Shown here: in pieces, positions 37,348 to 38,565 of the stretch
Numbering within the stretch: position 1 is the stretch's first letter
Layout: each line of letters begins with the position of its first letter
IMG/VR virus record: IMGVR_UViG_3300035696_000017
Coordinates: 1-64,000 of that record
Direction: 5' to 3' (one strand)
DNA: 64,000 bases
Source of the DNA: a virus
Program-made: the position numbers and the translations under genes
The notes under the pieces: generated by a model
What the model saw: the letters and a program-made list of their open reading frames with translations, nothing else
What the model was told of the DNA's origin: nothing
Database searches by the model: none

Positions 37348-37893
37348 TCAGGCATCAGGTGCCTTTGGTGGAGTCTCGCCGCCTTGTGGGGACGAACTAT
37401 TTGCACCATCTGACGAGGTGCAGAGCTTCCAGGGCACCCCTGCCTTGACCACGCGGTCGAGCATGTCAGCCGTCCCGCGCGAGTCTTGGATGTTGTTGTG
37501 GAAGGCAAGGCACAGGTCGATGGGCTCTTCGGGCTTGTTCTCCACATCCAACATCTGTTGGTTGCGGATCGGACCCGCGGCTTTCTTGTGCTTCACCCAG
37601 TCGGCCGGGTAGGGCCTGACCTCAAACCGCAACGCTTCAGCGACTGCGGCGCAGATGATGTCTGCACCCCTGCACGCTCCGTGCACGAGTATGGTGCCAG
37701 GCCTATAACCCTTCAACTCTTCGACGACCCGAGTGATGTCTGACCACTCGCGGTCACCGGTGACCAGGATCTTGTGGACGTACTTCTCCGCGGGCAGCTT
37801 CCGGCGTTCTTCCGGATCGCGTTGCGTGTAGTAGCGCCGGTCAGATTTGGTCCGCCTGATGTCGCCCGTTCGTCGCCGTGGTTCGTCTGCCAT
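37348..37893 (-). CDS. SLOG-family (DUF2493-like) protein
   Basis: ILVTGDR, LVHGACRGAD, ADW..AAGPIRNQQML, SRGTADM. Confidence 0.8.
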   Translation of the reverse strand: MADEPRRRTGDIRRTKSDRRYYTQRDPEERRKLPAEKYVHKILVTGDREWSDITRVVEELKGYRPGTILVHGACRGADIICAAVAEALRFEVRPYPADWVKHKKAAGPIRNQQMLDVENKPEEPIDLCLAFHNNIQDSRGTADMLDRVVKAGVPWKLCTSSDGANSSSPQGGETPPKAPDA

Positions 37894-38565
37894 CAGTCCC
37901 AGTCACCATTGTACCACCTCGACAGCCGGCTTTTTACACCCGTCCGGTGATCGGTGACCTGGTCGTCTTGCGTACGATACGTCCGCACCTTGTCGCCTCG
38001 TTGGCCGGTGCCGACCTGCTGCTTGCGTTCAGCTTCCTTTGCAAGACGCTGGCGTTCACGTTCGGCATCGTACAGCCTGGCCGCCATGACCTTCATAGCC
38101 AGGGCCTTGTTCTGGCTCTGGCTCCGCTCGTTGTCGATGCGGACCTGCAACCCCGTCGCCTTGTGGGTGACGATGACGCAGGACTCGGTCTTGTTGCGGT
38201 TCTGCCCGCCGGGACCCGAGCCCCGTGCGGTGGCGATGTCAACGTCCTGGTACGTCAGCTGCTTGCCGACGACGGTGTCAGGATCGAAGACGGCGACAGT
38301 CACCGTTGACGTCTGGACCCGTCCCCGCTTCTCAGTGGGAGGGATCCGCTGCCATCGGTGACCACCGCTCTCGTGCTGGAATGTCTGCTTGGCGCCCGTG
38401 CCTGAGAAGGCGACGGTGACCATGCCCGGTCGCTCGTCGATCAGCTCAGACTCAAAGACCCCTCCGCGACGCCACGTTGGCGTACGCACGGAGCTGTTCC
38501 TTGACCAGCAGCTTTGCGTCGTCGCCGCCCTCGGCGGCTCGGATCTCGATGATGACCGTTTCCAT
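37893..38565 (-). CDS. Class-I peptide release factor, RF1-like, lacking domain 1; made by +1 programmed frameshift (~223 aa)
   Basis: Frame 0 METVIIEIRAAEGGDDAK...SRRGL-stop (38565-38452) joins the +1 frame carrying QRIPPTEKRGRVQTS (PxT) and GSGPGGQNRNKTES (GGQ). Confidence 0.88.
38451..38465 (-). promoter_or_regulatory. prfB-type +1 frameshift cassette
   Basis: GGAGG-GGT-CTT-TGA-G: internal SD, 3-nt spacer, CUU-U slippery site, UGA. Confidence 0.85.

What the first reader, a model, noticed from the sequence alone, without database searches (positions are those of the whole stretch)
37893..38565. Phage RF1-type release factor switched on by an RF2-style UGA frameshift
Seen: a 37-codon frame (METVIIEIRAAEGGDDAKLL...SRRGL) ends in CGG AGG GGT CTT TGA G, and the +1 frame continues into QRIPPTEKRGRVQTS and GPGGQNRNK. 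The ORF track misses the N-terminus. Established: SD + 3 nt + CUU-UGA is the prfB autoregulatory cassette, in which UGA is read only by RF2. PxT is the RF1 (UAA/UAG) specificity motif, whereas RF2 has SPF. Unusual: the cassette sits in an RF1-like gene and inside domain 2 (aligned to RF2 'ESRGF'), not at the canonical codon 25/26 site of domain 1. Domain 1 is absent, as in PrfH. Inference: this is a sensor that makes a phage factor only when host RF2 activity falls (cross-regulation), or the factor has gained UGA or rescue activity. Either way it would be an independently evolved recoding circuit.
Basis: partly seen in the sequence, partly recalled or inferred. Interest (0 to 1): 0.92.

Follow-up and report, generated by a model that had tools for sequence, protein, structure and literature searches.

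The report
Frameshift-gated short RF1-type release factor
A huge peat phage carries a shortened RF1-type translation-termination factor that can be made whole only if the ribosome slips one base forward at an internal CUU-UGA; published work describes this switch only for bacterial RF2, and about a hundred diverged relatives in phages and myxobacteria keep it.

Summary
On the minus strand, a 37-codon frame (38565-38455) ends in CGG AGG GGT CTT TGA G. The +1 frame continues to 37896 and completes a 223-aa release factor with domains 2-4, a PPT loop and GGQ, but no domain 1.

It is not an error. Contigs from three other peat runs carry the same junction. 102 further diverged homologues from viral, metagenome and genome collections are interrupted at the same codon. 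Across all 103 genes the P-site codon is CTT in 102 and CCT in 1, and the base after the stop is C in 88.

- The gate stop is TGA in 71 genes, TAG in 29 and TAA in 3, and it switches between close relatives.
- 26 genes lack an SD-like element.
- Eleven relatives have an in-frame TGA instead. The one huge phage tested genome-wide among them uses the standard code.
- The family also sits in myxobacterial chromosomes.
- It is not PrfH: the score is below cut-off and there is no RtcB.

My best reading is a prfB-like +1 frameshift gate. In this phage, host RF2 would read the gate and the product would read UAA/UAG. The rival is a factor that reads its own gate codon.

I found no paper describing this. 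This scan has noted the same device before on other DNA, with 106 notes from at least 89 genomes.

The parts
38455..38565 (-). ORF0: codons 1-37 of the release factor (start ATG 38565-38563). It encodes the first strand and the long helix of domain 2, including the invariant EGGxDA tip.
   Evidence: Pfam PCRF positions 101-134. The same 37-codon length is seen in the homologues.
38461..38465 (-). SD-like GGAGG, 3 nt (GGT) upstream of the slippery codon. It is the presumed 5' stimulator that pairs with the 16S rRNA tail.
   Evidence: Sequence. GGAGG at this spacing occurs in 52 of 103 homologues, another SD-like 4-mer in 25, and none in 26. Its function is inferred from prfB (PMC5009743, PMC3711429).
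38452..38457 (-). Shift site CTT TGA. CUU sits in the P site and UGA in the A site. Peptidyl-tRNA-Leu would re-pair on UUU. The next base is G (38451).
   Evidence: The P-site codon is CTT in 102 of 103 genes and CCT in 1, while CTT makes up 13.5% of Leu codons elsewhere in 32 of these genes. Stop is TGA 71, TAG 29, TAA 3. The fourth base is C in 88.
37896..38453 (-). ORF1 in the +1 frame: residues 38-223 (rest of domain 2, domain 3 with GGQ, domain 4).
   Evidence: Pfam PCRF 153-194 and RF-1 7-116. RF1 of T. maritima aligns across the junction.
38334..38342 (-). Codons for P75-P76-T77, the tripeptide at the position of the RF1 PxT 'anticodon' motif.
   Evidence: P75 and P76 are conserved in at least 90% of 28 aligned relatives. 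Variants PPN, PEN, APN, SPT, or a shortened loop, occur in divergent members.
38202..38210 (-). Codons for G119-G120-Q121, the catalytic GGQ motif.
   Evidence: Invariant in alignments A1 and A2.
37893..37895 (-). Terminal TGA of the factor gene. It overlaps the ATG of the downstream SLOG/YspA-like gene (TGATG).
41028..41113 (-). Phage tRNA-Leu(GAG), the isoacceptor type that reads CUU and slips in prfB. It is a possible accessory and is not shown to be part of the device.
   Evidence: ARAGORN. Its role is an inference only.

Best explanation
The gene encodes a 223-aa class-I release factor of RF1 type that lacks domain 1. It is decoded in two frames. Ribosomes translate 37 codons. With peptidyl-tRNA-Leu on CUU in the P site and UGA in the A site, some ribosomes slip +1 onto UUU and read GAG next, which yields the full factor. 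The rest terminate and release a 37-aa fragment. The slip is helped by GGAGG placed 3 nt upstream and by slow termination at the stop. Because the gate codon in this phage and its ten closest relatives is UGA, host RF2 competes with the slip. Output should therefore rise when RF2 activity per ribosome falls. The product most likely reads UAA and UAG (PPT loop, Q72, T85) and releases peptides through GGQ. Without domain 1 it should work independently of RF3. Shown here: the two-frame anatomy, its reproducibility in other runs, its conservation, and the RF1-like sequence and fold class. Inferred: that slipping happens, how efficient it is, its dependence on RF2, and the codon specificity of the product.
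For: Anatomy. One continuous match to PCRF plus RF-1 across the junction. RF1 scores above RF2 and PrfH by NCBIfam (218/137/101 bits) and by PDB sequence search (158/104/63 bits). 103 genes are interrupted at the same codon, with CTT in 102, a stop in all, and C after the stop in 88. No ATG, GTG or TTG lies in the +1 frame just after the SD-like element, so re-initiation is unlikely. The junction is identical in contigs of three other runs. The short factors form one side of a 100/99 branch against cellular RF1, and the window's 10-row clade is uniformly TGA. A natural uninterrupted relative (L025) folds with pLDDT 87.9 and matches ribosome-bound RF1 at TM 0.92 and rmsd 1.8. The junction falls in the loop between helix 14-34 and strand 37-44. 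The phage uses the standard code with TGA as its main stop (about 102 of 151 rough gene calls). According to PMC1586002, domain 1 is not needed for peptide release or codon specificity, and truncated RF1 works in vivo.
Against: No experiment shows a +1 product. An RF1-type product cannot feed back on a UGA gate, so the circuit would not regulate itself as prfB does. Relatives with the same decoding loop use UAG or UAA, and the stop switches between sisters, which argues against a specific need to sense RF2. The base after UGA in the window is G, not the weakest context C. The universally conserved His next to T85 is Gln in the window (RVQTS). The tip Glu of helix alpha5 is Asp throughout the family. 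Normal stop-codon reading is therefore assumed, not shown.
Confidence: 0.6

Rival explanations
1. The frameshift mechanism is the same, but the product reads its own gate codon. The family would then be a relaxed or omnipotent class-I factor (UGA, UAG and UAA), and the gate would be true negative autoregulation, as in prfB.
For: In prfB the gate codon is one the product reads and is never TAG (PMC12421855). In this family all three stops serve as gates (71/29/3) and swap between sister genes with the same PPT loop. One member has SPT. Family-wide changes occur at decoding residues: Asp for the helix-tip Glu, and Gln or His before T85. Eleven relatives use an in-frame UGA instead of a frameshift, which would also be self-limiting if the factor reads UGA.
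Against: The PxT-type tripeptide with Thr third and Pro first, plus Gln72 and Thr85, are the RF1 determinants. From my own recall of the tripeptide rule of Ito et al. 2000 (not read here), these predict UAA/UAG only. I saw no co-variation between gate codon and decoding residues when I tabulated them by eye.
Confidence: 0.25
2. The gate does not sense anything. It only sets a fixed low yield of the factor relative to its operon neighbours, or the 37-aa ORF0 peptide has a role of its own.
For: The stop identity and the SD-like element are both dispensable across the family. The gene is translationally coupled to its neighbours on both sides.
Against: A weak RBS would give a fixed low yield more cheaply. 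A stop codon is retained in all 103 genes, C follows it in 88, and in-frame-UGA variants also exist. These point to competition with termination as the selected property.
Confidence: 0.07
3. The product is a ribosome-rescue factor in the manner of PrfH or ArfB. It would act on damaged or stalled ribosomes during infection rather than at normal stop codons.
For: Domain 1 is missing, as in PrfH. The divergent members L001 and L017 have a shortened decoding loop. According to an earlier scan note that I did not check, the same phage carries a tag-less mini-tmRNA. The gene sits inside the tRNA and translation island.
Against: The PrfH model scores 101.5 bits against a cut-off of 166.65. No RtcB or SmpB was found in the 114-kb record. 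The fold of a relative matches RF1 at TM 0.92 and PrfH at 0.67. Stop-codon reading residues are conserved in most members.
Confidence: 0.06
4. The interruption is an assembly or sequencing indel or a dead gene, or the two frames give two separate proteins.
For: Gene callers annotate only the ORF1 part.
Against: The junction is identical in contigs of three other runs. 103 independent genes share the same codon position and the invariant CTT-stop. Both frames remain homologous to RF1 with no gap at the junction. ORF0 carries an invariant decoding element.
Confidence: 0.02

Closest known systems
Bacterial prfB (RF2) autoregulatory +1 programmed frameshift, SD-N3-CUU-UGA-C (PMC12421855, PMC3711429, PMC5009743)
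   Same: A short ORF0 ends in an in-frame stop and the main body lies in the +1 frame. CUU is the slippery P-site codon. An SD-like element sits 3 nt upstream. The stop has a poor context (C in most relatives). No 3' RNA structure is needed. The gene encodes a class-I release factor.
   Different: The host gene is RF1-like, not RF2. The site is at codon 37/38 in domain 2 and is not homologous to codon 25/26 in domain 1. The gate stop may be UGA, UAG or UAA, whereas prfB never uses TAG. A quarter of members have no SD-like element. In the window the product probably cannot read its own gate.
Canonical bacterial RF1 (prfA; TIGR00019, NF001859; PDB 1rq0, 4v63)
   Same: Domains 2-4, a PxT-type tripeptide, Gln and Thr for the third base, and GGQ. 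It gives the best sequence and fold matches.
   Different: There is no domain 1 (about 105 residues). The domain-2 loops are shorter. Model scores are about half the cut-offs. The family forms a separate clade (100/99). Expression requires recoding, whereas a survey of 12,753 genomes found no programmed frameshift in prfA.
PrfH (RFH; TIGR03072; PDB 9mor, 7sa4; PMC1586002)
   Same: It is a class-I factor of about 200-230 aa that lacks domain 1 and keeps GGQ.
   Different: PrfH always follows an RtcB gene and has its own decoding motifs. The score here is below cut-off, there is no RtcB, the fold match is weaker (TM 0.67), and no frameshift is described for prfH.
Mimivirus/Megavirus class-I release factor gene, decoded through one readthrough and one frameshift (Jeudy et al. 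2012, PMC3521657)
   Same: It is a virus-encoded termination factor whose own synthesis needs recoding at internal stops, which the authors read as a bacterial-style autoregulatory scheme.
   Different: It is an eRF1/aRF1-type protein of a eukaryotic giant virus, with different sites and signals.
RF1 genes of TGA-recoded 'Jade' phages (Borges et al. preprint 10.1101/2021.08.26.457843)
   Same: These are phage-encoded RF1-type factors placed among translation genes.
   Different: They are described as part of a code-change module in phages that read TGA as Trp, and no frameshift is mentioned. The window phage and LR745206.1 use the standard code.

Membership tests
prfB-type +1 programmed frameshift cassette | A short ORF0 ends in an in-frame stop, and the functional body continues in the +1 frame | tested here: met
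   The same holds in 102 further homologues.
prfB-type +1 programmed frameshift cassette | Slippery CUU codon immediately 5' of the stop (CUU_U) | tested here: met
   CTT at 38457-38455. CTT in 102 of 103 genes, against 13.5% of Leu codons elsewhere in 32 of these genes.
prfB-type +1 programmed frameshift cassette | SD-like element 3 nt upstream of CUU | tested here: met
   GGAGG at 38465-38461 with spacer GGT. In the family it is present in 52 genes, degenerate in 25 and absent in 26.
prfB-type +1 programmed frameshift cassette | The gate stop is UGA (never UAG), followed by C | tested here: inconclusive
   The window has UGA followed by G. The family has TGA 71, TAG 29, TAA 3, with C as fourth base in 88.
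prfB-type +1 programmed frameshift cassette | The site is homologous to RF2 codon 25/26 in domain 1 | tested here: not met
   The junction aligns to PCRF profile position about 134, to 'ERKGW|N' of T. maritima RF1, and to a domain-2 loop in the model.
prfB-type +1 programmed frameshift cassette | The product reads the gate codon (negative autoregulation), and a +1 product is demonstrated | not testable with these tools
   This needs reporter, mass-spectrometry and release assays.
RF1 (prfA equivalog, TIGR00019 / NF001859) | Whole-protein score above the curated cut-off (full four-domain architecture) | tested here: not met
   207.9 and 217.9 bits against cut-offs of 423 and 400. The match covers profile positions 105-329 only.
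RF1 (prfA equivalog, TIGR00019 / NF001859) | PxT tripeptide, the third-base Gln/Thr pair, and GGQ | tested here: met
   PPT, Q72, T85 and G119-G120-Q121. Exceptions: Gln replaces the conserved His before T85, and Asp replaces the helix-tip Glu.
RF1 (prfA equivalog, TIGR00019 / NF001859) | Fold of domains 2-4 as in ribosome-bound RF1 | tested here: met
   Tested on the natural uninterrupted relative L025 only: TM 0.92 and rmsd 1.8 to 9mtr.
RF1 (prfA equivalog, TIGR00019 / NF001859) | Groups within cellular RF1 in a tree | tested here: not met
   42 short factors are separated from 18 cellular RF1 by a 100/99 branch.
PrfH (TIGR03072) | Score above the curated cut-off | tested here: not met
   101.5 bits against 166.65.
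PrfH (TIGR03072) | Lies directly downstream of an RtcB-family gene | tested here: not met
   The upstream gene is phosphatase-like. No RtcB was found in the 114-kb record, though the record is only 31% complete.

The most novel reading that the evidence does not exclude
The interchangeable gate codons (UGA, UAG, UAA, plus in-frame UGA) on genes with the same decoding loop mean that the gate reports the factor's own specificity. The family would then be a natural omnipotent bacterial-type class-I release factor, self-regulated through whichever stop it carries, and used by huge phages and myxobacteria as a stand-alone, RF3-independent termination reserve.
Probability: 0.25. Interest if true: 0.92.

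Novelty: new variant of a known kind. Interest (0 to 1): 0.8.

Why it matters
Programmed +1 frameshifting at CUU-UGA is the textbook example of a translation factor that regulates itself, and it has been tied to RF2 alone. Recent surveys state that prfA shows no such device (PMC12421855). The standard review calls an RF1/UAG counterpart 'unknown' (PMC5009743).

This family shows three things.
- The same cassette arose a second time, at a different place, in an RF1-type gene.
- It exists in UAG, UGA and UAA versions, and apparently also in an in-frame-UGA form.
- It spreads through huge phages and myxobacteria.

This provides a natural series for testing how the stop codon, its context and the SD-like element set frameshift efficiency. 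It could also show whether a phage measures the host's termination capacity, and whether a domain-1-less factor is an ordinary RF1 or has a wider reading range.

In practice, gene callers truncate these genes. All 120 nearest database entries lack the N-terminal 37 residues.

Tried and rejected
1. Megablast of the region against the phage collection found no match.
2. I first took the in-frame TGAs in the AT-rich relatives (L002, L003, L014, L037, L056) as evidence of TGA-to-Trp recoded phages, and used that to argue that the factor cannot read UGA. I rejected this.
   - In 400 kb of LR745206.1 coding density is 0.925 under code 11 and 0.922 under code 4.
   - TGA ends 89 of 533 rough genes there, and none of its 45 tRNAs has a TCA anticodon.
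   - In 40-kb pieces TGG far outnumbers in-frame TGA.
3. I looked for a link between the gate stop and local stop-codon use. There is none: TGA-type loci have 45% TGA and 28% TAG, TAG-type loci 40% and 31%.
4. I looked for a link between the gate stop and decoding residues (PPT variants, His or Gln before T85). None was visible by eye.
I did not send it anywhere else, and folded a natural uninterrupted relative instead.
6. Rfam gave no match. Local RNA folding around the junction is not significant (z -1.38).
7. No RNA holder was listed for the stretch.
8. RtcB and SmpB were not found in the 114-kb record.
9. Re-initiation after ORF0 is unlikely because no start codon lies in the +1 frame after the SD-like element.

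Full report
WHAT IS THERE. The feature lies on the minus strand. An ATG at 38565 opens a 37-codon frame (METVII...SRRGL) that ends in CGG AGG GGT CTT TGA G, with the TGA at 38454-38452. The +1 frame is open from there. Starting with GAG at 38453 it encodes 186 more residues down to TGA at 37895-37893. These include IPPTEKRGRVQTS and GPGGQ.

Read with one +1 step at CTT-T, the 223-aa product gives one unbroken match to Pfam PCRF (profile 101-194, 74.1 bits; the two pieces alone give 24.3 and 42.9) plus RF-1. NCBIfam ranks RF1 (217.9 bits) above RF2 (137.1) and PrfH (101.5). All three are below their cut-offs because only profile positions 105-329 are covered. PDB sequences give the same order: RF1 158 bits, RF2 about 104, PrfH 63.

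The upstream gene ends 4 nt before the ATG and is a phosphatase-like protein. The downstream SLOG-family gene overlaps the stop (TGATG). Domain 1 is therefore truly absent.

The record is a 114-kb fragment of a huge phage, estimated 31% complete, from peat. The window has 35 tRNA genes, and the factor gene sits among them. A rough gene call gives density 0.88 under the standard code, with TGA as the main stop: 102 TGA, 36 TAG and 13 TAA.

IS IT REAL. Contigs from three other peat runs, from different samples and studies, cover the junction with no difference and no gap.

The closest record in the phage collection, a 485-kb uncultured phage at 47% identity, has the same CGG AGG GGT CTT TGA at the same codon. 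Of 15 IMG/VR relatives (42-89% identity), 14 are interrupted at codon 37 by CTT TGA. A metagenome scan added 17 more. A scan of species-representative genomes added 71.

Across all 103 genes, including the window:
- The P-site codon is CTT in 102 and CCT in 1.
- A stop follows in every gene.
- The next base is C in 88.
- The base before CTT is T in 63.

CTT is only 13.5% of Leu codons elsewhere in 32 of these genes. The fused proteins align without a gap at the junction, also against uninterrupted relatives and against RF1.

The 120 nearest database proteins (59-96% identical) are 125-217 aa long, and none reaches the roughly 222 aa of a whole gene. Annotation has therefore consistently missed ORF0. 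No start codon lies in the +1 frame after the SD-like element, which argues against re-initiation. There is no Rfam match and no significant local RNA fold, as in prfB. An artefact, a dead gene or two separate proteins can be set aside.

The gate stop is not always UGA. It is TGA in 71 genes, TAG in 29 and TAA in 3. In a 60-row maximum-likelihood tree, the 42 short factors are split from 18 cellular full-length RF1 by a 100/99 branch. All frameshifted genes fall in one 37-row group (92/86). TGA and TAG are interspersed: TAG needs 9 changes, and L017 (TGA) is sister to L069 (TAG) at 98/87. The window's own clade of 10 rows is uniformly TGA.

I found no link between the gate codon and local stop usage or decoding residues. 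The SD-like element is exact in 52 genes, degenerate in 25 and absent in 26. The invariant core is therefore CUU-stop(-C).

A SECOND KIND OF GATE. Eleven short relatives are in one frame but carry in-frame TGA at codons 36-58, followed by A or C. Two of them (L067, L088) have it exactly at the frameshift position, where RF1 has Trp.

I first took these for TGA-recoded phages. The genome-level test says otherwise for the one I could test:
- In 400 kb of LR745206.1, coding density is 0.925 under code 11 and 0.922 under code 4.
- TGA ends 89 of 533 rough genes.
- There is a tRNA-Trp(CCA) and no TCA-anticodon tRNA among 45 tRNAs.

In 40-kb pieces of LR745206.1 and LR756504.1, TGG outnumbers in-frame TGA by about 7 to 1, and most of those TGAs sit at ORF ends. 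These TGAs therefore look gene-specific. They are probably readthrough gates, though this is an inference. Only eight short relatives have no gate at all.

NOT ONLY PHAGES. Most genome-collection hits are Myxococcota MAGs, which could include mis-binned phage contigs. However, the complete chromosomes of Archangium gephyra SDU49 (TAG gate) and Minicystis rosea DSM 24000 (TGA gate) also carry the gene, as do Pyxidicoccus fallax and a Nannocystaceae isolate. Within 3 kb of the first two, the neighbours include a glycosyltransferase, a DUF1569 protein and a GDSL lipase, with no phage families.

HOW IT MOST LIKELY WORKS. The anatomy is that of prfB: a 5' SD-like stimulator at a 3-nt spacing, CUU in the P site able to re-pair on UUU, and a slowly read stop in the A site (PMC5009743, PMC3711429). 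I therefore take +1 ribosomal frameshifting in competition with termination as the mechanism (about 0.93).

For the window, the competing factor is host RF2. The product keeps the RF1 determinants: Pro first and Thr third in the tripeptide, Gln72 and Thr85 for the third base, and GGQ. A natural uninterrupted relative folds (pLDDT 87.9) onto ribosome-bound RF1 at TM 0.92, against 0.85-0.88 for RF2 and 0.67 for PrfH. According to PMC1586002, deleting domain 1 leaves release activity and codon specificity intact but removes the RF3 link.

So the most likely circuit here is a UAA/UAG-reading, RF3-independent factor whose yield rises as RF2 activity falls. The phage also encodes tRNA-Leu(GAG) and tRNA-Glu(CUC), which would be the slipping tRNA and the incoming +1-frame tRNA. 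Whether this matters is not known.

The main rival (0.25) is that the factor reads its own gate codon, whichever it is. That would explain the free exchange of UGA, UAG and UAA and restore prfB-like autoregulation. It conflicts with the RF1-type motifs, but the family does carry unusual substitutions at decoding positions: Asp at the helix tip, and Gln or His before T85.

COMPARISON WITH THE LITERATURE.
- A 2025 survey of 12,753 genomes states that programmed frameshifting is shown for prfB but not prfA, and that TAG is never the prfB gate (PMC12421855).
- The 2016 review says that no RF2 gene has an early in-frame UGA read through, and that the counterpart with UAG and RF1 is unknown. It cites only the giant-virus eRF1-type gene as a viral case (PMC5009743, PMC3521657).
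- Papers on huge and recoded phages list RF1 and RF2 genes without mentioning frameshifting.
- Five library searches found no description of this device.

This scan's own notebook holds 106 notes on the same device from at least 89 other genomes, with the same general reading. Its lead about myxobacteria was tested here and holds.

LIMITS. Gene calls are greedy ORF picks. MAG labels may be wrong. The standard-code test was done on one in-frame-TGA phage in depth and one in part. The window's fused product could not be folded. No expression data were available.

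Noticed in passing
L002 (LR745206.1), L003 (LR756504.1), L014, L037, L056, L067, L088, L144, L162, L186, L191: Short RF1-type relatives without a frameshift carry one or two in-frame TGA codons at codons 36-58, followed by A or C. 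In L067 and L088 the TGA is exactly at the frameshift position, where RF1 has Trp. LR745206.1 uses the standard code genome-wide, so these look like gene-specific readthrough gates.
   Followed up: partly
L137 (Archangium gephyra SDU49 chromosome), L146 (Minicystis rosea DSM 24000 chromosome), L140, L197: Gated short release-factor genes lie in chromosomes of cultured myxobacteria, with no phage families in the 3-kb flanks. These organisms could serve for direct tests.
   Followed up: partly
L013, L022, L027, L032, L134, L135, L139, L145, L172, L173, L199: One subset replaces the SD-like CGG AGG with CTC CAC or CGC CAC (encoding Leu-His or Arg-His) before NNN CTT stop. Whatever stimulates the shift there is not an SD pairing.
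   Followed up: no
L057: This is the only gate with CCT instead of CTT before TGA (CGT CCT TGA C). It has a Pro codon in the P site that could re-pair on CUU.
   Followed up: no
window 38569-39063 (-): The gene directly upstream of the factor encodes a 164-aa protein with an HCxxGxxRS signature. It has a weak dual-specificity phosphatase match (PF00782, E 0.003) and matches phrog_5614. Its C-terminal tail is also seen upstream of the factor gene in L004, L005, L008 and L010.
   Followed up: partly
window 37348-37893 (-), 36205-36750 (-), 39012-39320 (-): The neighbours are a SLOG/YspA-like protein (PF10686) whose ATG overlaps the factor's stop, a NADAR-domain protein (PF08719) and a small S24-peptidase-like protein (PF00717). 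All lie inside the tRNA island.
   Followed up: no
window 48786-48857 (-): ARAGORN reports a tRNA-like gene with an undetermined identity and a two-base 'anticodon' (tt).
   Followed up: no
window 41028-41113 (-) and 43846-43918 (-): The phage encodes tRNA-Leu(GAG) and tRNA-Glu(CUC). These would be the tRNA that sits on CUU at the shift site and the one that reads the first +1-frame codon GAG.
   Followed up: no
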